The notes under the pieces are model-generated. The model did no database searches, was not told the DNA's origin, and saw only the letters and a list, made by a program, of their open reading frames with translations. Shown here in pieces: positions 8,807 to 43,012 of a stretch of DNA of 64,000 bases (within the stretch, counting starts at the first letter, position 1; the number at the start of each line of letters is the position of its first letter). Origin of the DNA: Squalus acanthias (lineage: Eukaryota). The DNA is taken from the NCBI GenBank assembly GCA_030390025.1, contig CM059431.1, positions 101,992,001-102,056,000 of the forward strand. The letters run 5' to 3'. The position numbers were made by a program, and so were the translations under genes.

Positions 8807-9809
8807 AACCTTCCGACTCTTACCTCAATCCCTCTCCCTCTCTCAAAATCTATCTATGTATCTATTAGAGGGGCTGACAGCCACTGACAGCATTCCCCCC
8901 TCCCGCTCGCTCCGGCCCGAACCAAACCTTGGTGTCCTGTTCGACCCCGAGCAGAGCGTGAAACGCCACATCTGATCCATCACCAAGACTGCTTATTTCC
9001 ACCTCCACAACTTTGCCCCTCTGCTGCAGAAACCCCTGTCCATGCTCTTGTCACCTTGGCTTGATTACTCTAGCATTCTCCTTGCTGGCCTCCCATCCTC
9101 CACCCACTATCAACTCCAATTTATCCAAAATACAGTTGCTTGTATCCTGTGCTGCATTTCTATGCCCCCCACCGCCCTTCATCAACCATTGGTAGAGCCG
9201 TTCGCCCCACTCTGTGGAACTCTCCACTCACCCCCTTCCAAAACCGCTCTGCCTCTCTTCCCGCCTTCTAAAAACCTCAAAACTCATCATTTTGCTCCAT
9301 GGGTTCCTATCTATTTCCATTTCTCAAGTGACTTGGGAATTTATTTATTTTGCTTTTAAAGGCTTTATACAAATATGTAAGTTGATGACGACCGGTCTTT
9401 CAAACGGATGTTTATACCGAGACCAAGTCCAACCTGACACATAATTTGTTTTGGTTCGATAGGGTAGACCTGGAGAGGATGTTTCCACTCGTGGGGTGAG
9501 AGAGTCTAAAACTAGGGGCTGTAAATATAAGATGATCACTAATAAATCCAATAGGGAATTCAGGAGAAACATCTTTACACAGAGAGTGGTGAGAATGTGG
9601 AACTCGCTACCACAGGGAGTGGTTGAGACGAATAGCGTCGATGGATTCAAGGGGAAGCTAGATAAGCACATGAGGGAGAAAGGAATAGAAGGATACGCTG
9701 ATAGGGTGAGATAAAGTAAGGTGGGAGGAGGCTCGTGTGGAGCATAAACACCGGCACGGACAGGTTGGGCCGAGTGGCCTGTTTCTGTGCTGTAAAATTC
9801 TATGTAATA

Positions 9810-19615: not shown

Positions 19616-20225
19616 GAAGTTCCCTCAAGCTAGTTAATTTTCATGAGGTACTGATGGGCACTAAATATGGATCTGAGTAATGAGCAGCCTTGGGAGTCTA
19701 ACGCATGGCCTGGCTAGGAGGCAAGCACAGGTGGTACTGGGTGCCAATAGTCTTCACTAATGCAAGGTGCCAATTCTCCATACATTGGCTTGCTTTACTG
19801 ATCCTACCACTTTAATTCCTTACTGTAAGGGAATGTGGCTTGGAGGTTCCCAGGGCTCACTCTCTCTCTTTGAGTGACCCAACCATTCACACCTGCCAAC
19901 AACTCTTAATCCTCTTGCATTTCTGTGGGGTGTTTATCAGCAGGAAGGCATGGAAGGAAAGTTCTTTAAAGTCATATAGTCACATCTGGTGATAAGCCAC
20001 CCTTTGATCAGGCCCGGGTAATGCAAACAAACCTACCAGATCACCACGTCACCGGACGTGTATTGTATTTGTTAGTTTTTTGTGGGGAGAGGAAGGAATG
20101 TTAACTGTGCAAGCCCAGTTCTTGGTTCAATAGCAAAATACTGCGGATGCTGGAAAACTAAAATAACAACAGAAAGCGCTGGAAAAACTCAGCAGGCCAG
20201 GCAACATCCGTGGAGAGAGAAACAG

Positions 20226-20262
20226 AGTTAACGTTTCAGGTCGAAGACCCTTCGTCAGAACT
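20226..20262 (-). ncRNA. Minimal type I hammerhead ribozyme motif (Penelope family A)
   Basis: Reverse strand reads AGTT-CTGACGA-A-GGGTC-TTC-GACCT-GAAAC-GTT-AACT: core boxes, stem II, palindromic minimal stem III, stem I AGTT/AACT. Confidence 0.75.
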
Positions 20263-21208
20263 GAGAAAAAAGCAGGAAATGAAACAGATGAAAAAGCAAG
20301 TTTGGAGGCTGGGGGAGGGAATAAAAGAACAAAAGGGAAGGTCTGTGAGACGTAGAGACATTAAGAGATACACAAGGCGAGACGAGATGGTAATAGGACA
20401 GGTTAAGAAACAAAAGATGGCTCAGAAGTGTGAAATGCGCTGGCAGGATGAAAGACAGCTGCCACGTGGGAGAGAGAAAAAAAGAGAAAAGGCACAAACC
20501 AAAAGGGGGGATAAAAATGGTAGGGGCCGAGGTTATAATCTGAAATTGTTGAACTCGATATTGAGTCCGGAAGGCTGTAAAGTGCCTAATCGGAAGATGA
20601 GGTGCTGTTCCTCGAGCTTACGCTGAGCTTCCGTGGAACAGTGCAAGAGGCCGAAGACGGTGAGGTCTGAGTGGGCATGGAGCGGTGAGTTAAAATGACA
20701 GGCGACCGGAAGCTCGGGGTCACCCTTACGGACTGAACGGAGGTGTTCCACAAAGCGGTCTCCCAATCTGCGTTTGGTCTCCACAAAGTCCTTCCGGACT
20801 CCATATCGAGTTCAACAATTTCAAATTATAACCTCGGCCCCCACCATTTTTATCCCCCCTTTTGGTTTGTGCCTTTTCTCTTTTTTTCTCTCTCCCACGT
20901 GGCAGCTGTCTTTCATCCTGCCAGCGCATTTCACACTTCTGAGCCATCTTTTGTTTCTTAACCTGTCCTATTATCATCTCGTCTCGCCTTGTGTATCTCT
21001 TAATGTCTCTACGTCTCACAGACCTTCCCTTTTGTTCTTTTATTCCCTCCCCCAGCCTCCAAACTTGCTTTTTCATCTGTTTCATTTCCTGCTTTTTTCT
21101 CAGTTCTGACGAAAGGTCATGATGTGGAGATGCCGGTGTTGGACTGGGGTGGACAAAAATGAGAAGTCGCACAACACCAGGTTATAGTCCCAACAGATTT
21201 ATTTAATT

Positions 21209-21247
21209 TTACAAGCTTTCGGAACAGTTCGCTCCTTCGTCAGGTAA
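21209..21247 (-). ncRNA. Minimal hammerhead ribozyme motif (Penelope family B, left arm)
   Basis: Reverse complement of the motif at 22005-22043. Confidence 0.72.
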
Positions 21248-22004
21248 GTTAGCAGTGAGAGAATCTTCCAGAATTCACAATTTAAACACAGACAAAATAT
21301 ATTCAAATCTTTCCCTACATCAAAGAGCATAGCCAAGACAATGAGATGTGTCCCAGGGGGTCCAACGTGTCAAACCACCTGCTGGCTGCATATCCTGTCA
21401 ATCTGTGTAGGTTCTTGTGTTAGTCTTTTTAAAAAAAAACACCTGGGAAGATGTCAAGTCACGTTCTGTATCGTGACATGAACCCGATATCGCGATTGAG
21501 GCCATCCTCATGAGTGCGGAACTTGGCTATCAGTTTCTGCTCTATGATTTTGCGCTGTCGTGTATCTCGAAGGCCGCAGGCAGGAGGGTTGCCTCCCAGT
21601 CGGGGAACACTTCAGCAGCCAGGGGCATTTAGCCTCGGATATGCGGGTAAGCGTTCTCCAAGGCGGCCTTCGAGATACACGACAGCGCAAAATCATAGAG
21701 CAGAAACTGATAGCCAAGTTCCGCACTCATGAGGATGGCCTCAATCGCGATATCGGGTTCATGTCACGATACAGAACGTGACTTGACATCATGGCTGGTC
21801 TTCCCAGGTGTTTTTTTTTTTAAAAAGACTAACACAAGAACCTACACAGATTGACAGGATATGCAGCCAGCAGGTGGTTTGACACGTTGGACCCCCTGGG
21901 ACACATCTCATTGTCTTGGCTATGCTCTTTGATGTAGGGAAAGATTTGAATATATTTTGTCTGTGTTTAAATTGTGAATTCTGGAAGATTCTCTCACTGC
22001 TAAC

Positions 22005-22043
22005 TTACCTGACGAAGGAGCGAACTGTTCCGAAAGCTTGTAA
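22005..22043 (+). ncRNA. Minimal hammerhead ribozyme motif (Penelope family B, right arm; sense to STK24)
   Basis: TTAC-CTGACGA-A-GGAGCG-AAC-TGTTCC-GAAAG-CTT-GTAA; stem I TTAC/GTAA, stem II with G-U pairs. Confidence 0.75.
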
Positions 22044-22092
22044 AATTAAATAAATCTGTTGGACTATAACCTGGTGTTGTGCGACTTCTCAT

Positions 22093-22126
22093 TTCTGACG
22101 AAAGGTCTTCGACCTGAAACGTTAAC
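22093..22126 (+). ncRNA. Hammerhead motif of family A right arm, stem I damaged by the nested insertion
   Basis: TT-CTGACGA-A-AGGTC-TTC-GACCT-GAAAC-GTT-AAC; the upstream AGTT is replaced by ATTT. Confidence 0.6.
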
Positions 22127-22458
22127 TCTGTTTCTCTCTCCATGGATGTTGCCTGGCCTGCTGAGTTTTTCCAGCGCTTTCTGTTGTTATCCCAGTTCTT
22201 GGTTGTTGCTCTTGTGACTTGGTGCAATTGATGCCTCAGTTTGAAATCTATTAGAGATCTGATTTGGTTTGTTAAGAGTGAAGCAAATCTTACAGCCTTT
22301 GTGTAAAAGCCAGTGGACTCTCTAGCAAGGCATTGGTAAATCTTATGACTCTTGTCTGAGGTTTTCATGAAACAATACTTGAATTTTAAACAGTTGCGAG
22401 ATTCTTCTGCCACCCTCCCCAAGACTCCGTGCTAAGGATAGGATAAGTGTGTATACAC

Positions 22459-32298: not shown

Positions 32299-32541
32299 TA
32301 GACGTACCCTGGATCTGTGTCAGTAATAAAAAAAAATTTTGGCCGAACTATTTTGGTTGACTGTGGAACTTGCTACCACATAGTTGTTGAGGCGAATAGC
32401 ATAGATACATTTAAGGGGAAGCTGGATAATCACATGAGGGAGAAATATGCTCAACCTTTATAAAACACTGGTTAGTCCTCAGCTGGAGTATTGTGTCCAA
32501 TTCTGGGCACCACACTTTAGGAAGGATGTCAAGGCCTTGGA

Positions 32542-33185
32542 ATCATAGAATCATAGAAGATAGGAGCAGGAGTAGGCCATTTGGCCCCTCTAGCCTGCTC
32601 CGCCATTCAATGCGATCATGGCTGATCATCCAAATTCAGTACCCTGTCCCTGCTTTCTCCCCATATCCCTTGATCCCTTTAGCCTTAAGAAATATATCCA
32701 ACTCCTTCTTGAATCTATTTAATGAATTGGCCTCTACTGCCTTCTGTGGCAGAGAATTCCACAGGTTCACCACTCTCTGGGTGAAGAAATTCCTCCTCAT
32801 TTCTGTCCTAAATGGCTTACCCCTTATCCTTAGACTGTGACCCCTGGTTCTGGACTCCCCGACCATCGGGAACATCCTTCCTGCATCTAGTTTGTCCTGT
32901 CCTGTCAGAATTTTATAAGTTTCAATGAGATCCCCTCTCATTCTTCTAAACTCCAGCGAGTATAAGCCCAATCGACCCAATCTCTCTTCATACGTCATTC
33001 CTGCCATCCCAGGTATCAGCCTTGTGAATCTTCGCTGAACTCCTTCCATGGCAAGAACATCCTTCCTCAGATAAGGCGACCAAAACTGCACACAGTACTC
33101 AAGGTGTGGTCTCACCAAGGCCCTGTCCAGCTGCAGCAAGACATCCTTGTTCCTGTACACAAACCCTCTCACTATGAAGGCCAAA
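32542..33185 (-). mobile_element. CR1 3' fragment nested in another CR1
   Basis: ORF 32636-33184 [15 protein letters not shown]...FFTQRVVNLWNSLP; TGGA repeated at both junctions. Confidence 0.85.
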
Positions 33186-33560
33186 TGGAGAGGGTGCAGA
33201 GGAGATTTACTGGAATGGTACCAGGGATGAGGGGCTACAGTTCTGTGGAGAGAGTAGAGAAGCTGGGGGTGTTCTCCTTAGAGCAGGGAAGGCTAAGAGG
33301 AGATTTGATAGAAGTGATCAAAATCATGTAGGGTTTATTAGAATAAATAAGGAGAAACTGTTTCGAGTGGCAGAGGGTGGGTAACCAGAGGACACAGAAT
33401 TAAGGTAATTGGCAAAAGAACCAATGGCGACGTGAGTGCATTTTATTTTAAGCAGCGAGTTGTTGTGATCTGGAATGCGCTGCCTGAAAGGACGATGGAA
33501 GCAGATTCAATAACTTTCAAAGGGGAATTGGATCAATACTTGACGGGGAAATAATTTAAG

Positions 33561-36500
33561 GACAGAATCTATTTGGTTAGAGTTGAGAAACAATAGAGGT
33601 GCCATTACACTACTCAGTGTATTCTATAGGCCACCAACTAGTGGGAAGGACATAGAGAAGCAAATTTGCAAGGAAATTACAGAGAGAGGTGCAAGAACTA
33701 TAGAGCAGTGATAATGGGGGACGTCAATTATCCTAATAGAGACTGGGATAGTAATAGTGTAAAGGGCAGAGAGGGGGAAGAATTTCTGAGGTGTGTTCAG
33801 GAGAACTTTCTTGATCAGTACGTTTCCAGCCCAATGAAGAAGGAGGCATTGCTGGATCTGGTTCTGGGGAATGAGGTGGGTCAAGTGGAGCAAGTGTTAG
33901 TCGGGGAATATTTAGTGAACAGTGACCATTGTATCATAAGGTTTAGATTAGCTATGAAAAAGGACAGGGAGCAATCTAGAGTAAAAATACTTAATTGGAG
34001 GAAGGCAAATTTCAGTGGGTTGAGAACGGATCTGGCCCAGGTAAATTGGAATCAAAGATTGGCAGGCAAAACTGTAATCGAACAATGTGCTGCCTTTAAA
34101 GAGGAGATGGTTCGGGTACAGTCGAGGTGCATTCCCACGAGGGGGAAAGGTAGGGCAACTAAAGCCAGAGCTCCCTGGATGATGAAAGAGAGAGAGAGAA
34201 AAGATGAAGCAGAAAAAGAGCGCGTATGACAGATGTTAGGTTGAGAATCAGGCTGAATATAGAAAGTTCAGAGGGGAAGTGAAAAAGAAAATGAGAGGCA
34301 AAGAGAGAGTATGAGAATAGATTGGCAGCTAACATAAAAGGTAATTCAAAAGACATAAATAATAAACGGGTAGTAAGAGGAGGGGTGGGGACGATTAGGG
34401 ACCAAAAAGGAGATCTACGCATAGAGGCAGAGGGCATGGCTGAGGTACTAAATGAGTACTTTGCATCTGTCTTCACCAAGGAAGAAGATGCTGCCAAAGT
34501 CATAGTGAAAGAGGAGGTGGTGGAGATACGGGATGAGATAAAAATTGATAGAGGAGGTACCAGAAAGGCTATCTGAATTAAAAGTATCAAAGTCATCAGG
34601 ACTGGATGGGATGCACTAGGATGCGGAGGGACGTTAAGGAGGAAATTGCGGAGGTACTGGTCATAATCTTCCAATCCTCCTTAGATACGGGGGTGGTGTC
34701 AGAGGACTGGAGAATTGTAAATGTTACACCCTTGTTCATAAAAGGGTGCAAGGATAAACCCAACAACTACAGGCCAGTCAGTTTAACCTCGGTAGTGGGG
34801 AAGCTTTTAGAATCGATAATACGGGACAAAATTAACAGTCACTTGGACAAGTGTGGATTAATTAAGTAAAGCCAGCACAGATTTGTTAAAGGCAAATCGT
34901 GATTAACTAACTTGATTGAGTTTTTTGATGAGGTAACAGAGAGGGTTGATGAGGGCAATGCGGTTGATGTGGTGTACATGGACTTCCAAAAGGCGTTTGA
35001 TAAAGTGCCACACAATAGGCTTGCCATCATAGTTGAAGCTCATGGAATAAAAGGGACAGTGGCAACATGGATACGAAATTGGCTAAGTGACAGGTAACAG
35101 AGAGTAGTTTTGAACAGTTGTTTTTTGGACTGGAGAAACCTATACACTAGTGTTCCCCAGGGGTCGGTACTAGGACCACTGCTTTTCTTGATATATATTA
35201 AAGACTTGGACTTGGGAGTACAGGGCACAACTTCAAAATTTGCAGATGACACAAAACTTGGAATGTGCTCGCTGACCTACATTGGCCCCCGGTTAAGCAG
35301 CGCCTAGATTTCAAAATTCTCATCCTTGTTTTCAAATCCCTCCATGGCCTCGCCCTCCCTATCTCTGTAATCTCCTTCAGCCCCACAACCACCCCCACCC
35401 CGAGATATCTGTGCTCCTCTAATTCTGCCCTCTTGAGCAAACCTGATTATAATCACTCCACCATTGGTGGCCGTGCCTTCTGTTGCCTGGGCCCTACGCT
35501 CTGGAATTCCCTGCCTAAACCTGTCCGCCTCGCTACCCCTCTCTCCTCCTTTAAGACGCTCCTTAAAACCTACCTCATTGACCAAGCTTTTGGTCACCTG
35601 CCCTAATTTATCTTTATGTGGATAGATGTCAAAAGTTTTTGTCTTAAAATACTCCTGTGCAGCGCCTTGGGACGTTTTACTACATTAAAGGCGCTATATA
35701 AATACAAGTTGTTGTTGTTGATAGTGATAGACTTCAAGAGGACATAGACAGGCTGGTGAAATGGGCGGACATGTGGCAGATGAAATTTAACGCAGAAAAG
35801 TGCCAAGTGATGCATTTTGGTAGGAAGAACGGAGAGGCAATATAAACTAAAGGGTACAATCCTAAAGGGGGTGCATGAACAGAGAGACCTGGGGGTATAT
35901 GTGCACAAATCTTTGAAGGTGCCAGGGCAGGTTGAGAAAGTGGTTAAAAAAGCATACAGGATACCGGGCTTCATAAATAGAAGTATAGAGTACAAAAGCA
36001 AGGAAGTTATGATGAACGTTTGTAAAACACTGGTTTGGCCTCAACTGAAGTATTGTGTCCAATTCCGGGCACTGCACTTTAGGAGGGATGTGAAGGCCTT
36101 AGAGAGGGTTCAGGAAAGATTTACAAGAATGATTCCAGGGATGAGGGACTTCAGTTACGTGGATAGACTAGAGAAGCTGGGGTTGTTCTCCTTAGAACAG
36201 AGAAGGTTGAGAGGAGATTTGATAGAGGTGTTCAAAATCATGAGGTGTCTAGACAGAGTAGATAGAGAGAAACTGTTCCCATTGGCGGAAGAGTCGAGAA
36301 CCAGAGGACACAGATTTAAGGTGATTGGCAAAAGAACCAAAGGCGACATGAGGAAAAACTTTTTTACGCAGCGAGTGGTTAGGATCTGGAATGCACAGCC
36401 TGAGAGGGTGGTGGAGGCAGACTCAATCGTGGCTTTGAAAACGGAATTGGATAAGTACCTGAAGGAAAAAAAATTCACAGGGCTGCAGGGAAAGGGCGGG

Positions 36501-36597
36501 GAGTGCGACTAGCTGAAGTGCTCTTGCAGAGAGCCGGCACGGGTTCGACGGGCCGAACGGCGGCCTCCTGTGCTGTAACTATTCTGTGATTCTGTGG
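33561..36597 (+). mobile_element. Long 5'-truncated CR1 LINE (endonuclease C-part and RT), degenerate
   Basis: IMGDVNYP, LLDLVL, SDH (APE endonuclease); YRPVSLTSVVGK, DFQKAFDKVPH, PQGSVLGP, FADD (RT); multiple stops and frameshifts; ATTCTGTG tail. Confidence 0.9.
35263..35720 (+). mobile_element. L2-clade LINE 3' fragment nested in a CR1 RT
   Basis: Interrupts CR1 just after FADDTKLG; ends in (GTT)n. Confidence 0.85.
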
Positions 36598-36967
36598 TTT
36601 GCAGGGCTCTGGGGAAAGAGCAGGGGGAGTGGGACTAATTGGAGAGCTCTTTCAAAGACAGGCACGATGGGCCGAATGGCCGCCGCCTTTGCTGCATCAT
36701 TCTATGATTCTGTGAAAGGAATAGAAGGATATGATGATAGAGTTAGATGAAGTAGGGTGGGAGGAAGCTCGTGTGGAGCATAAACACCGGCACGGACCAT
36801 AATGGCCTGGTTCGGTGCTGTGCTTTCTGTATATGCCTAATGTACCAAACCTGGTATAGATGGGTTACTTTATAAATTGGCATGTAGACATAAAAGATGT
36901 AAAGTATTTCTATTTAATATTTTGACTACTGTTTTCCCATATACGGATTGCTGACAGCAGAAATTGA

Positions 36968-39001: not shown

Positions 39002-39882
39002 TACAATAGCAAAATACTGCGGATGCTGGAAATCTGAAATAACAACAGAAAATGAATGGTAGGACCCTAGGAAGGACAGAGGATCAGAGGGACCTTGGTG
39101 TGCATGTACATAGATCCCTGAAGGCAGCAGGACAGGTAGATAAGGTGGTTAAAAAGGCATATGGGATACTTGCCTTCATTAGCTGAGGCATAGAATATAA
39201 GAGCAGGGAGGTTATGATGGAGCTGTTCAAAACGCTAGTTAGGCCACAGCTGGAATACTGTGTGCAGTTCTGGTTGCCACACTATGGGAAGGATGTGATT
39301 GCATTGGAGAGGGTGCAGAGGAGATTCACCAGCATGTTACCTGGGCTGGAGCACTTCAGCTATGAAGAGAGACGGGACAAGCTGGGGTTGTTTTTCTTAG
39401 AGCAGAGAAGGCTGAGGGGGGGACCTGATTGAGGTGTGCAAAATTATGAGGGGCATAGATAGGGTAGATAGAAAGGAACTTTTCCCCTTAGTAGAGGGGT
39501 CAATAACCAGGGGGCATAGTTTCAAGGTAAGGGGCAGGAGGTTTAGAGGGGATTTGAGGAAAAACTTTCTCACCCAGTGGGTGGTTGGAATCTGGAACTC
39601 ACTGCCTGAAAGGGTGGTAGAGGCAGGAACCCTCACAACATTCAAGAAGCATTTCGATGAGCACTTGAAACGCCATAGCATACAAGGCTACGGACCTAGT
39701 GCTGGAAAATGGGATTAGAATAGATAGGGCTTGATGGCCGGCGCGGACACGATGGACCGAAGGTCCTCTTTCTGTGCTATATAACTCTATGACTAAAATG
39801 CTGGAAACACTCAGCAGGCCAGGCAGCATCCATGGAGAGAGAAACAGAGTTAACGTTTCAGGTCGTTTCTGTTCTGATGAAG
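39002..39882. mobile_element. Miniature Penelope family A insertion interrupted by a CR1 3' fragment (39055-39794)
   Basis: 16-bp TSD ACGCCCAACTTATTAT (38986-39001, 39883-39898); inner CR1 flanked by AAAATG duplication (39049-39054, 39795-39800). Confidence 0.82.
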
Positions 39883-40125
39883 ACGCCCAACTTATTATGT
39901 TTGTGCTTGCGCTTGGGCATAATAATGCTGAGCAACTGACTGTTGACTCCAAAGAACAACTTTCTAAAGGTCAGGCGAGAAGTGCGTCAAGTTTTAGGAA
40001 GATCATCACCCCAAGGACCCATTGCAAAGAAATGTTTTTGCTTCCTTGATGATGAGAAATGATAAGTAGGTTTTACTTTACTATTTAAGAAGGAATAGCT
40101 AATATATTTTGTTTATTTTCTTAAG

Positions 40126-40271
40126 AGACCTACAGCAAAAGAATTGCTGAAGCATAAGTTCATAATACGAAATTCCAGGAAGACCTCTTATTTGACGGAA
40201 CTAATTGACCGGTACAAGAGGTGGAAGGCGGAGCAGAACCATGATGATTCCAGCTCAGACGAATCTGACTC
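40126..40271 (+). CDS. STK24: STK24 exon 7 equivalent (146 nt; end of kinase domain, basic NLS region, acidic linker)
   Basis: AAG acceptor; RPTAKELLKHKFIIRNSRKTSYLTELIDRYKRWKAEQNHDDSSSDESD plus 2 nt; donor GTAAGT. Confidence 0.95.
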
Positions 40272-41249
40272 GTAAGTTTTCCTGTAGCATGCATTCACAT
40301 AGTTCCACTCAGAGGCTTCGATGCTTCCAATAAAACATGCTCAATTGTATTGCTAAACATGTAATATTGCATAGAGTTTACAGTACGGAAACAGTCCGTG
40401 CCGGTGTTTATATGCCACACGAGCCTCCCTCCCTACTCTATCTCACCCTATCAGCATATCCTTCTATTCCTTTCTCCCTCATGTGTTTATCTAGCTTCCC
40501 CTGAAATGCATCTGTGCTATTCGCCTCAACCACTCCCTGTGAATGTTTGGAGGATATTTGATAGATCCCACTGTGGTTGGCAGTCAGTGTTGCCCCACTT
40601 GGATTCGGCGTTATTCCCTAAAGATGAGCACGTCGCTTTTGTATCTTAAATTGGAATTATTAATTACCATTCGCCTGCTTACCAATCCGCAACTCAGTAT
40701 CTTGGGAAGCTAACTGCTTTTAGGCAAGCTTTTGCTATAAAAAAAAACCAACACATCTCAACATAGCTCCTGTCCAAGTCCGATCATGAAACAAGTGGCC
40801 AAAAATTTAGAACCCCCGAAACACACGTAGTAATTGAGAACCAGCAAAGGGTGAGAGAGCCAAACTATTTTGATTGACTATGGAACGCGCTACCACGCCT
40901 TCCACCTCTTGTACCGGTCAATTAGTTCCGCCAAGTAAAAGGGGAAGTTAGATAAACACGAGGGAGAAAGGAATAGAAGGTTATGCTGATGAGGTGAGAT
41001 AAAGAGGGGTGGGTGGAGGCTCGTGTGGAGCATAAACACCGGCACAGATCTGTTGGGCAGAATGGCCTGTTTCTGTGCTGTGTATTCTATGTAATAAGGG
41101 ATGGACGTAGCCTAAGAGAAAAAGGTAACACACAGAATAAGGTTCAAGGCTTAAAAATGTAGAAAAAAGATAAGGAAGAAGCTGGGGAACGTAAAAATAT
41201 AGCTGCTTTTTACCTGAACCAAATTATCTTTTATTCACATGCTAACAGA

Positions 41250-41856
41250 CTTGCTGAGCACAAAAATCTAGGTTGATACTCCAGTGTAGTACTGAGGGAG
41301 CGCTGCATTGTCGGAGGGGCAGTACTGAGGGAGCGCTGCACTGAGGGAGCGCTGCACTGTCGGAGGGGCAGTACTGAGGGAGCGCTGCACTGTCGGAGGG
41401 ACAGTACTGAGGGAGCGCTGCACTGTCGGAGGGGCAGTACTGAGGGAGCACCGCACTGTCGGAGGGGCAGTACTGAGGGAGCGCTGCACTGTCGGAGGGA
41501 CAGTACTGAGGGAGTGCTGCACTGTCGGAGGTGTCGTCTTTCGGATGAGACGTTAAACCGAGGCCCCGTCTGTCTCTCAGGTGGACATAAAAGATCCCAC
41601 AGCACTATTTCAACGAAGAGCAGGGGAGTTCTCCCCGGTGTCCTGGCCAATATTTATCCCTCAATCAACAGAACAAAAACAGATCATTTGGTCATTATCA
41701 CATTGCTGTTTGTGGGAGCTTGCTGTGCGCAAATGGGCTGCTGCGTTTCCTACATTACAACAGTGACTCCACTTCAAAAAGTACTTCATTGGTTGTAAAG
41801 CACTTTGGGACATCCGGTGGTCGTGAAAGGCGCTGCAGAAATGCGAGTCTGTCTTA
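41250..41856 (+). mobile_element. DeuSINE copy with internal tandem expansion
   Basis: Same family; head missing; contains the 33-bp array listed separately. Confidence 0.82.
41288..41531 (+). repeat. 33-bp minisatellite, about 7 units
   Basis: CAGTACTGAGGGAGCGCTGCACTGTCGGAGGGG repeated, with one truncated unit. Confidence 0.92.
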
Positions 41857-42027
41857 TCTTTCTTTACTACGTTAAAGGCGGTCTATAAATAGAAGTTGTT
41901 GTTTTTGCTTGTTCGTAGCCACTTTCCTAGTTGCCAAAATAGTCGTCTTTTGTTTCTGGTGGAACGATTTGCCATGAAGAGTTTTTTTGCAGGATAGTTG
42001 AAACAGTAATTTTTTTTTTACCATTAG

Positions 42028-42154
42028 CGAAGCTGAAGGACAAGCGTCGGGAGGAAACGACTCAAGTGACTGGATCTTCACAATCAGGGAGAAAGATCCA
42101 GTCAAGCTGCAGAATGGTGCTGCCCAGCCCGATGAGCATATCGAGAGGGATCAG
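42028..42154 (+). CDS. STK24: STK24 exon 8 equivalent (127 nt, WIF motif)
   Basis: T-tract + TAG acceptor; phase matches exon 7; (S)EAEGQASGGNDSSDWIFTIREKDPVKLQNGAAQPDEHIERDQ; donor GTACAA. Confidence 0.93.
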
Positions 42155-43012
42155 GTACAATCCATCATTCCCTGTTTTAATTTGACTTACGGTTTAAAAA
42201 AAAAGTCTTCAAGCCGCTCTTAAAATTGCTGGTTAGATGTCGAGATGAATCGCAACATTTTTAGCTTCAGTAACTTCAGGCCAAATTGAGATTCTATGCA
42301 GTGTAACCCTGTAATTGCCAGCGGGTTAAGGGAAATCTCATTCAGTGTTAGCAGATCAACTCGAGCAAAGAAAGACTGTACAGGCCGGGGAACTTTTCTC
42401 GAGAAAAGGGAAGACTGACTGTTGACCTGATGGAGGTCTTTAAAATTCTGAAAGAGTAGACGGATAGAAGATGTTTCCACTTGTGGGGAGAATCCAAAAC
42501 TAGAGGACATAAATATAAGACAGTCACTAATAAATCCAATAAAAAATTCAGCAGAAACTTCTTCACCCAGAGAGTGGTGAGACTGTGGAACTCGCTACCA
42601 CAGGGAGTGGGTGAGGCGAATAGCGTAGATGCATTTAAGGGGAAGCTAGATAAACACGAGGGAGAATGGAATAGAAGGTAATGTTGATGAGTAGAAATAA
42701 GGCAGGAGGAGGCTCGTGTGGAGCATAAACACCAGCATAGAGCTGTTGGGCTGCATGGCCTGTTTCTGCTCTGTAAAATTCTTCCAGCAGTTGTCTGTTA
42801 GTTTCGTGGAGAACGAACTAGTTTCTGGATTAAGAAACAAGCTACTGTTGCTGTTGAAAATAGCAGTATCTGTAAATAGAACAAGCAAGTATGTTAACCC
42901 TCCAATAGTCATTATTGCCATTACCACCGAGGTTTGGTGAGAAAGGTAAAACGTTTTATGTTGCAATATGCCATGTCTACGGTGCTTAACGTCGAACCCT
43001 TAACTTTTATAG

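What the first reader, a model, noticed from the sequence alone, without database searches (positions are those of the whole stretch)
40896..40942. Antisense copy of coding exon 7 in intron 7: candidate ADAR editing-complementary sequence
Seen: 40896-40930 (CGCCTTCCACCTCTTGTACCGGTCAATTAGTTCCG) is the exact 35-nt reverse complement of exon 7 positions 40196-40230. Pairing extends to 47 nt (40184-40230) with an A:C mismatch at exonic A40195, a G:U at 40191 and a mismatch at 40187. A40195 is the first base of ACG (Thr, about T285 in human isoform b numbering). Known: exon/downstream-intron duplexes are the architecture of ADAR recoding sites (e.g. GRIA2), and A:C mismatches favour editing. Inference: the pre-mRNA could be recoded Thr>Ala, or at Tyr/Lys/Arg codons of LTELIDRYKRWK in the reported MST3 NLS region, or exon 7 inclusion could change. 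Caveat: A40195 has a 5' G, a disfavoured ADAR neighbour; the A of TAC (40214) has a better context.
Basis: partly seen in the sequence, partly recalled or inferred. Interest (0 to 1): 0.85.

Follow-up and report, generated by a model that had tools for sequence, protein, structure and literature searches.

The report
Antisense exon patch inside intronic repeat
A 43-47 base backwards copy of part of an STK24 (MST3) kinase exon sits inside a decayed mobile element in the next intron; it looks like a scar of a DNA copying slip, and nothing yet shows that it drives RNA editing, although it could pair with the exon.

Summary
40896-40930 is the exact reverse complement of 40196-40230, extending to 47 nt at 44 of 47. 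It is unique in the 3.7-Gb genome. The exon encodes STK24/MST3 residues in the mapped nuclear-localisation region.

The copy lies inside a LINE-derived repeat copy (40859-41096). About 33-35 nt of repeat sequence were replaced by about 42 nt of antisense exon (40897-40938). The last 4 nt of the "47-mer" can be read as repeat sequence. This pattern fits a DNA template-switch or templated-repair event. Its left junction falls within 3 nt of the inner edge of an older inverted pair of repeat copies (40390-40541 and 40940-41054).

The patch's left junction is also present in an independent DNA run of the same species and in two related species about 3.3% diverged.

The exon:patch duplex is strong (-80 kcal/mol). 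It is the predicted best fold only until about 45 nt more RNA is made. After that the crossing repeat:repeat helix (-209 kcal/mol) wins.

One spliced mRNA contig carries the exon with 0 differences. That argues only against majority editing.

Most likely this is a neutral scar. A functional ADAR site is unproven and unlikely.

The parts
40126..40271 (+).
   Evidence: The translation matches human STK24 chain 3ckw_A positions 247-294, E 2.9e-24. The RNA contig of X14 covers exactly 40126-40271 with 0 differences. Joined to 42028-42154 the frame is open.
40184..40230 (+). Exonic arm of the inverted repeat and source of the copy. It encodes ..TSYLTELIDRYKRWKA.
40272..42027 (+). Intron between this exon and the next (1756 nt)
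   Evidence: Donor at 40272; acceptor AG at 42026-27 before the exon carrying DWIFTIREKDP
40390..40541 (-). Repeat arm 1: a 5'-truncated copy of a LINE 3'-end family in minus orientation. Family homology stops at 40541.
   Evidence: BLAST to 9 other places in the window, none extending beyond 40541. Alignments A1 and A2.
40859..40896 (+). Left part of the repeat copy that hosts the patch
   Evidence: 86.8% over 38 nt to 32342-32379, a copy that runs on collinearly into the family body
40896..40942 (+). Antisense copy of the exon segment. 40897-40938 is securely exon-derived. C40896 and 40939-42 are shared with the repeat (junction microhomology).
   Evidence: Unique in the genome. The left junction is present in runs X2, X6 and X8.
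40939..41096 (+). Right part of the host repeat copy (arm 2). 40940-41054 is complementary to 40390-40502 (84.6% over 117 nt).
   Evidence: 8 BLAST hits, none extending left of 40939 and 5 starting exactly there. MFE pairing of the two arms.
42028..42154 (+). Next STK24 exon (contains the WIF motif)

Best explanation
The 47-mer is the product of one DNA-level template-switch or templated-repair event. It is not a purpose-built regulatory element.

Proposed history:
1. A LINE-derived repeat copy already lay in the intron (40859-41096, plus orientation). Together with an older, oppositely oriented copy (40390-40541) it formed an imperfect inverted repeat.
2. At the inner edge of that inverted repeat, DNA synthesis left its template. 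It copied about 42 nt of the nearby exon in reverse-complement orientation (source 40188-40230, 665 nt away). It then returned to the repeat 33-35 nt further on.
3. This replaced a stretch of repeat sequence with antisense exon. In the four-point model it is order 3-2-1-4, the type that creates an inverted repeat.
4. The event predates the split of at least three related species and has since drifted.

As a by-product, the pre-mRNA can form a 47-bp exon-intron helix for a short co-transcriptional window. The stronger crossing repeat:repeat helix then competes with it. Any ADAR editing of the exon is expected to be low-level and unselected.

Shown: the sequence anatomy, its uniqueness, its presence in other runs and species, the energies, and the unedited mRNA contig. 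Inferred: the mechanism of origin and neutrality.
For: 1. Replacement inside a collinear repeat copy. In alignments A1 (8 sequences) and A2 (5 sequences) the locus matches the repeat family up to ..GCTACCAC and again from AAGGGGAAG. The copy at 32338-32425 and other copies carry 33-35 nt of family sequence between those points, whereas the locus carries the antisense exon. 0 of 8 BLAST hits to arm 2 extend left of 40939.
2. Junction microhomology is 1 nt on the left (C40896) and up to AGG on the right.
3. The patch's left junction coincides within 3 nt with the family coordinate at which arm 1 is truncated. That coordinate is the inner boundary of the ancestral inverted repeat.
4. The patch occurs once in 3.71 Gb. 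2 of 16 hits cover it, itself and the exon. It is therefore not a repeat-subfamily feature.
5. It is not an assembly artefact. The left junction 40895/40896 is spanned by contigs of an independent DNA run of the same organism (X2, 1 difference in 40513-40930) and of organisms B (X6, 40515-40925) and D (X8, 40515-40938).
6. The drift pattern is consistent with no maintenance of pairing. B and D differ from the window by about 3.3% in the intron. The exon has unmatched synonymous differences inside the duplex: 40191 T here against C in B, and 40197 G>T in B.
7. The RNA contig of X14 has 0 differences over 146 nt of the exon, with normal splice bounds.
8. Folding. The exon helix is in the MFE (41-45 of 47 pairs) only for 3' ends at 40945-40975, and has 0 pairs from 40990 on. 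Forcing it in 40126-41100 costs +79.8 kcal/mol.
9. The event type is described in print. Reverse-complement copying of a nearby fragment, type 3-2-1-4, creates an inverted repeat (PMC5453318, passages read). Template switching can create RNA stems in one step (PMC8794818, abstract read).
Against: - No outgroup with the unpatched repeat copy was seen. The ancestral state is inferred from paralogous repeat copies, not from an ortholog.
- The source lies 665 nt from the insertion point. That is far beyond the short-range events (tens of bases) the four-point model was applied to (PMC5453318).
- Neutrality is not demonstrated. 0-1 differences in 30 covered patch bases between species, against about 1 expected, has no power.
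- The 35-bp perfect core, and at least 31 exact bases in B and D (implied by the k=31 contig branching), has persisted in three species.
- The RNA evidence is one contig from one run of unknown tissue. Minority editing would be invisible.
- Nested-fold models cannot represent a pseudoknot, so coexistence of both helices is not excluded.
- The right junction (40938/40939) was not seen in the listed contig pieces of any laid run. That table was flooded by repeat contigs. This junction rests on the assembly.
Confidence: 0.7

Rival explanations
1. Active but unselected by-product. The exon:patch helix forms co-transcriptionally and is kinetically trapped, so ADARs edit exon adenosines promiscuously at low level, or splicing of this intron is slowed, without any adaptive role.
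For: The helix is -80 kcal/mol and is the MFE (45 of 47 pairs, mean pair probability 0.92) for the transcript ending at 40950. The patch is transcribed before arm 2. The 3' splice site lies a further 1085 nt downstream, which leaves time. That long near-perfect duplexes are edited non-selectively is recalled knowledge, not tested here.
Against: The mRNA contig of X14 shows 0 of 13 duplex adenosines changed, though it reports the majority base only. The window in which the helix is thermodynamically preferred is only about 30-45 nt of further transcription. The competing helix is 2.6 times as stable.
Confidence: 0.2
2. Selected ADAR editing-complementary sequence. The patch directs recoding, for example T>A at 40195 or Y>C at 40214, in the STK24 nuclear-localisation region, or regulates inclusion of the exon.
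For: It has the exon/downstream-intron duplex architecture with an A:C mismatch at 40195. It is present in at least 3 species. The paired codons lie in the region mapped as the Mst3 nuclear localisation domain (PMC4237420 passage). Long adjacent intronic stems are reported to boost site-selective editing (PMC3479170, PMC5654063; listings and abstract starts only).
Against: - No A>G was seen in the only RNA contig.
- A40195 has a 5' G, a disfavoured neighbour by recalled knowledge.
- A perfect 35-bp duplex is not the imperfect, site-selective kind of structure.
- 11 of 13 possible edits are nonsynonymous in an exon whose translation matches human at 43 of 48 aligned positions.
- Exon differences at 40191 and 40197 are uncompensated as far as could be seen.
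- The origin is a generic mutational event.
- No paper in the held library combines STK24, A-to-I and recoding (0 papers).
- The adjacent long stem here crosses the exon helix rather than standing beside it.
Confidence: 0.07
3. Origin by reverse transcription rather than DNA replication or repair. Either the LINE reverse transcriptase switched templates during insertion of the host repeat copy, or an RNA-templated repair event copied a transcript.
For: The host is a LINE-derived copy, and a family member in the window has an endonuclease-reverse transcriptase domain (PF14529, E 8.2e-10). The copied piece lies wholly within one exon, so it cannot distinguish an RNA from a DNA template.
Against: By orientation, first-strand cDNA of the plus-oriented repeat copy would have had to copy an RNA antisense to STK24, then return to the LINE RNA about 35 nt further on. 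That needs two switches and an unattested antisense RNA (inference). This model does not explain why the junction coincides with the inner boundary of the inverted repeat.
Confidence: 0.08
4. Assembly or sequencing artefact.
For: k=31 contigs do mis-join through the 35-mer. X2 record 9 and X8 record 24 jump from the exon into the intron on the opposite strand.
Against: The patch differs from the exon at 2-3 positions. Its left junction with unique intron sequence is present in 3 of 3 DNA-type runs laid, from 2 studies and 3 organisms.
Confidence: 0.01

Closest known systems
Template-switch mutations (four-point model of Loytynoja and Goldman, type 3-2-1-4 / 1-4-3-2; PMC5453318, PMC8794818)
   Same: A fragment of nearby sequence is copied in reverse complement and replaces a similar length of the original sequence. 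This creates a perfect inverted repeat, able to form an RNA stem, in a single step. There is little or no junction homology.
   Different: The source is 665 nt away and the copied fragment is about 42 nt, whereas the published scans target short-range events. One arm is a coding exon and the other lies in the downstream intron. The event sits at the inner edge of a pre-existing inverted pair of LINE fragments. The ancestral state is inferred from paralogous repeat copies, not from an orthologous outgroup.
Intronic editing-complementary sequences of ADAR recoding sites (for example the GRIA2 Q/R site; recalled from general knowledge, not from a call)
   Same: An exon pairs with a sequence a few hundred nucleotides into the downstream intron, so any editing must precede splicing. 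There is an A:C mismatch in the duplex.
   Different: No editing was observed. The duplex is a perfect 35-bp core rather than an imperfect site-selective structure. It is young and lineage-restricted as far as seen (3 close species). It is derived from a mutational patch inside a repeat. It is in crossing (pseudoknot) competition with a much stronger helix.
Inverted repeat-element pairs in introns as promiscuous ADAR substrates (the Alu-type situation; PMC4053975, listing and abstract start only)
   Same: Two oppositely oriented copies of one interspersed repeat family, 400 nt apart in one intron, are predicted to form a helix of 115-150 bp.
   Different: That helix involves only intron sequence. 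The exon is drawn in only through the patch, which replaced the inner 33-35 nt of one arm.

Membership tests
ADAR recoding site with intronic ECS | Exon adenosine lies in a double-stranded structure formed with an intronic complementary sequence | tested here: inconclusive
   The duplex is strong (-80 kcal/mol) and is the MFE for transcripts ending at 40945-40975. It is absent from the MFE and the ensemble once arm 2 is included. Pseudoknots were not modelled.
ADAR recoding site with intronic ECS | A-to-G discrepancy between RNA and genomic DNA at the site | tested here: not met
   The RNA contig of X14 has 0 differences in 40126-40271. This is one run, majority base only and tissue unknown, so minority editing was not tested.
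ADAR recoding site with intronic ECS | ECS conserved above intron background, or covarying with the exon, across species | tested here: inconclusive
   The patch is present in 3 organisms about 3.3% apart. There were 0-1 differences in 30 covered bases against about 1 expected. Exon differences at 40191 and 40197 have no visible compensation.
ADAR recoding site with intronic ECS | Dependence of the change on ADAR1 or ADAR2 | not testable with these tools
   Needs a minigene or knock-down experiment.
Template-switch mutation (four-point model) | The inserted fragment is a reverse-complement copy of nearby sequence on the same chromosome | tested here: met
   40897-40938 is the reverse complement of 40188-40229 with 2 mismatches, 35 nt exact within 40896-40930. 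It is the only other copy in the genome.
Template-switch mutation (four-point model) | Flanks collinear with the ancestral sequence, so that one switch-and-return explains the whole cluster | tested here: met
   Both flanks align in register to the repeat family, with 33-35 nt replaced (A1 and A2). The reference is paralogous copies, not an ortholog.
Template-switch mutation (four-point model) | Ancestral (unswitched) state seen in a sister lineage | not tested
   All three organisms laid carry the patch. No read-laying run was left for organisms C and E-H.
Template-switch mutation (four-point model) | Short range (source within the same replication fork, tens of bases) | tested here: not met
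   The source is 665 nt upstream. If the repeat arms were paired, the path would shorten to about 160-200 nt (inference).
LINE (APE-type non-LTR retrotransposon) 3'-end repeat family, as host of the patch | Many 5'-truncated copies sharing a 3' end, with longer members encoding endonuclease/RT | tested here: met
   There are at least 8 copies in the window with a common 3' part and variable 5' ends. PF14529 matches 33642-34229 upstream of the copy ending near 36828. The assignment to CR1 specifically rests on a recalled 3'-tail motif and was not tested.

The most novel reading that the evidence does not exclude
This would be the birth of an editing-complementary sequence caught early. A single template-switch event copied exon sequence backwards into the next intron and made a conserved kinase exon an ADAR substrate in a small clade of cartilaginous fishes. 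Detectable tissue-specific A-to-I changes would follow in the STK24 nuclear-localisation segment. The abutting long repeat helix might recruit ADAR.
Probability: 0.15. Interest if true: 0.6.

Novelty: new member of a known kind. Interest (0 to 1): 0.33.

Why it matters
How intronic editing-complementary sequences arise is rarely documented. Template switching is known to make perfect stems in one step. Here it demonstrably placed a 35-bp perfect complement of a coding exon in the adjacent intron of a conserved kinase gene.

If editing were found, this would be a dated, mechanistically explained origin of a recoding substrate. If not, it is a clean example of a tolerated exon-intron inverted repeat.

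It also carries a practical warning. k=31 assemblies mis-join through it. Reads from the patch that are mapped to an mRNA-only reference would mimic A>G at 40195 and T>C at 40191, because the patch differs from the exon at exactly those positions.

Tried and rejected
- First idea: one inverted duplication carried both the exon piece and the repeat arm. Rejected. The two arms are independent copies of a high-copy family, and the order of the pieces is permuted relative to a simple inverted duplication.
- Interim inference that organism B's patch differs at 40926. Withdrawn. The contig ends at 40201, 40230 and 40925 only mark the k-1 overlap at the branch point. They show an exact repeat of at least 31 nt, not its left limit.
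- The look-up of sequencing runs: no RNA holder listed on record. X14, X17 and X21-24 are labelled RNA only by guess.
- Parts of the laid stretch had no cover in some runs. X2 and X8 had none in 40229-40322, and no run covered 41169-41215. These gaps are not interpreted.
- Own-genome search with the left flank 40815-40895 found only itself (1 match). It gave no extra copies of that repeat subfamily.
- Rfam scan of 39800-42200 at E up to 1: 0 matches.
- Pfam on 7 ORFs of 32966-36750: 1 had a hit (PF14529) and 6 had none. No reverse-transcriptase domain was found.
- The search of earlier findings by place and by sequence: nothing held.
- Literature: 'STK24' + 'A-to-I' + 'recoding' gave 0 papers. 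The ECS-origin search gave only general ADAR papers. The shark + ADAR search listed nothing on this gene in the 8 rows shown.
- Stop-to-stop ORF listing to find all exons was abandoned as too many (409 ORFs). The next exon was found through the WIF motif instead. Exon numbering (7) was therefore not verified.

Full report
**Observation**

The region was read directly. 40896-40930 is the exact reverse complement of 40196-40230. At up to 3 mismatches the 35-mer occurs twice in the window, at the site and at its exon partner, and 0 of 100 dinucleotide shuffles gave two matches. The repeat finder extends the pair to 47 nt (40184-40230 / 40896-40942) at 94%.

- A40195 opposite C40931.
- U40191 opposite G40935.
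- C40187 opposite A40939.

A40195 is the first base of an ACG Thr codon.

**Gene and exon**

The exon translation matches human STK24 chains: 3ckw_A positions 247-294 at E 2.9e-24, and 3a7f_A positions 262-303. MST4 and STK25 score lower.

The exon is 40126-40271. The donor GTAAGT begins at 40272, one base earlier than I first assumed. The next exon is 42028-42154 and contains DWIFTIREKDP. The intron is therefore 1756 nt. Exon numbering was not verified.

The paired segment encodes TSYLTELIDRYKRWKA. A passage read in PMC4237420 says the Mst3 nuclear localisation domain was mapped to residues 278-294.

**What surrounds the 47-mer**

A BLAST of 40274-41300 against the window and two alignments (A1 with 8 sequences; A2 with 5 sequences) show that the 47-mer lies inside a copy of an interspersed repeat family.

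- The family has at least 8 copies in the window with a shared 3' end and variable 5' ends.
- A longer member lies downstream of an ORF matching PF14529, endonuclease-reverse transcriptase, at E 8.2e-10. This was 1 of 7 ORFs scanned. The family is therefore LINE-derived. Calling it CR1 rests on a recalled tail motif.

At the locus the family alignment runs up to ..GCTACCAC (40896) and resumes at AAGGGGAAG (40939). 0 of 8 BLAST hits to the right part extend left of 40939, and 5 begin exactly there. The copy at 32338-32425 shares the locus's left part (86.8% over 38 nt) and runs on collinearly through 33 nt of family sequence into the same right part. The copy at 9605 has 35 nt there.

So about 33-35 nt of repeat sequence were replaced by about 42 nt of antisense exon (40897-40938). 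C40896 and 40939-42 are shared by both sources, giving microhomology of 1 nt on the left and up to AGG on the right.

**A second repeat copy and the junction coincidence**

A copy of the same family lies in the opposite orientation at 40390-40541. It is complementary to 40940-41054 (84.6% over 117 nt). Its family homology stops at 40541 or earlier in all 9 hits (5 end exactly at 40541), at the family coordinate CAC|AGGGAG. That is the same coordinate, within 3 nt, at which the patch begins in the other copy.

Before the event the two copies would have formed an inverted repeat whose inner boundary was the patch's left junction. By a rough post-hoc estimate, a chance coincidence within +/-3 nt along a copy of about 240 nt is a few per cent.

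**Uniqueness and reality**

In the 3.71-Gb assembly a query of 40850-40970 gave 16 matches. Only 2 cover the patch, itself and the exon (94%). The other 14 cover only the repeat part.

Four runs were laid as Logan contigs at a minimum likeness of 90.

- **X2**, a different sample and study of the same coded organism A. One contig runs 39900-40195 and then continues on the opposite strand 40930-40513, with 1 difference. This is a k=31 graph walk through the 35-mer. It nonetheless contains the patch's left junction with unique intron sequence.
- **X6** (organism B). Contigs cover 39900-40230, 40201-40409 and 40515-40925, the last with 13 differences and 7 gap positions.
- **X8** (organism D). 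One contig covers 39900-40187 and then 40938-40515, with 15 differences and 9 gap positions.

The patch is therefore present in 3 of 3 DNA-type runs, from three organisms that differ by about 3.3% in this intron. The branching pattern implies an exact repeat of at least 31 nt in B and D.

The right junction was not visible in the listed pieces, because repeat contigs flooded the tables.

**Polarity of differences**

B's exon differs from the window at three positions:
- 40137, A>G.
- 40191, T>C.
- 40197, G>T.

All three are synonymous. C at 40191 matches G40935 of the patch. The 'G:U wobble' therefore comes from a synonymous exon difference that arose after the copy was made, probably C>T in the window's lineage.

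40197 G>T in B would put a mismatch into the core unless the patch compensates. B's contig stops at 40925, so that could not be seen.

Between species the covered 30 patch bases show 0-1 differences against about 1 expected. There is no power to detect constraint.

**RNA evidence**

Run X14 has no depth on unique intron. It contains a 4094-nt contig covering exactly 40126-40271 with 0 differences. This is a spliced STK24 mRNA that includes the exon, with all 13 duplex adenosines read as A.

Contigs keep the majority base, the tissue is unknown, and the run is RNA only by guess. This result excludes majority editing in that sample and nothing more.

**Folding**

| Structure or transcript | Result |
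|---|---|
| Exon:patch duplex | -80.0 kcal/mol |
| Two repeat arms | -209.3 kcal/mol (duplexfold), -218.9 kcal/mol (cofold) |
| Transcript 40126-40950 | MFE contains 45 of 47 exon:patch pairs, mean pair probability 0.92 |
| 3' end at 40945, 40960, 40975 | 41, 45 and 42 pairs in the MFE |
| 3' end at 40990 and beyond | 0 pairs in the MFE |
| Transcript 40126-41100 | MFE -356.7 kcal/mol, z -12; pairs the repeat arms, exon segment folds locally |
| Forcing the 35-bp core in 40126-41100 | Costs +79.8 kcal/mol |

The two helices cross (i<i'<j<j'). They are mutually exclusive in nested models. A pseudoknot could not be evaluated.

Kinetically the exon helix could form first, because the patch is transcribed before arm 2. 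The 3' splice site follows 1085 nt later.

**Consequences if edited**

Of the 13 adenosines in the duplex, 11 would change an amino acid: Y>C twice, T>A, E>G, I>V, D>G, K>E twice, K>R twice and R>G. The exon translation matches human STK24 at 43 of 48 aligned positions. A40195 has a 5' G. A40214 and A40190 have a 5' U. Neighbour preferences are recalled knowledge.

**Interpretation**

The anatomy has these features:
- A reverse-complement copy of nearby sequence.
- Replacement of a similar length of a collinear template.
- Minimal junction homology.
- A single occurrence in the genome.

This is what the four-point template-switch model describes. With the switch points ordered 3-2-1-4, an inverted repeat is created. 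That type and its mirror case made up 31% of high-confidence human-chimp events (PMC5453318, passages read). Such events can create RNA stems in one step (PMC8794818, abstract read).

Differences from the published events are the long range (665 nt) and the location at the inner edge of a pre-existing inverted repeat. That location suggests, by inference, a stall or break at a hairpin. A hairpin would also bring the exon to within about 160-200 nt of the fork.

A reverse-transcriptase origin is less likely. By orientation it would need an RNA antisense to STK24 and two switches.

I therefore read the patch as a neutral scar of DNA replication or repair that incidentally created a potential exon-intron duplex (confidence about 0.7). 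About 0.2 goes to low-level, unselected editing or a splicing effect. About 0.07 goes to a selected ADAR site.

**Comparison with known systems**

It works like an intronic ECS only in architecture. The defining RNA-DNA discrepancy was looked for once and not seen. Conservation is untestable at this depth, and ADAR dependence cannot be tested here.

It qualifies as a template-switch-type mutation on two of four defining features. One feature was not tested (an outgroup with the ancestral state) and one was not met (short range).

No paper in the held library combines STK24, A-to-I and recoding. Rfam has nothing in 39800-42200.

**Verdict**

The feature is real and explained in origin, and is probably functionally silent. 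It is a new member of a known kind of mutation. It is of moderate interest as a possible example of how an editing-complementary sequence could be born, and as a trap for k-mer assembly and editing calls.

Noticed in passing
window 43134-63971 (runs to the window end): A huge tandem array: 29-nt unit (also read as a 54-nt unit), about 762 copies, 82% matches, at least 20.8 kb. It starts about 1 kb downstream of the STK24 exon at 42028-42154, so it presumably lies inside the next intron.
   Followed up: partly
window 20156-22197: A nest of near-perfect long palindromes: arms of 329 nt (98%), 253 nt (100%), 140 nt (96%) and 112 nt (95%) within 2 kb (I1, I2, I6, I17). They are much younger-looking than the repeat pairs elsewhere in the window.
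   Followed up: no
window 33642-34229 (+): An ORF with an endonuclease-reverse transcriptase domain (PF14529, E 8.2e-10). It probably belongs to a longer decayed LINE whose 3' end (about 36714-36828) is of the same family as the two repeat arms in the intron.
   Followed up: partly
window 40196-40230 / 40896-40930: k=31 contigs of two public runs (X2 record 9, X8 record 24) jump from the exon into the intron on the opposite strand through the 35-mer. Short-read assemblies, and mapping to mRNA-only references, can produce false joints here and a false 'A>G' at 40195.
   Followed up: partly
window 40137, 40191, 40197: Three synonymous differences in this STK24 exon between the window's organism and related organism B. 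The one at 40137 is also seen in D.
   Followed up: yes
window 40503: Nearly all repeat-family contigs in all four runs read T where the window's arm 1 has G. This is a private substitution of this copy relative to the family (table 3).
   Followed up: no
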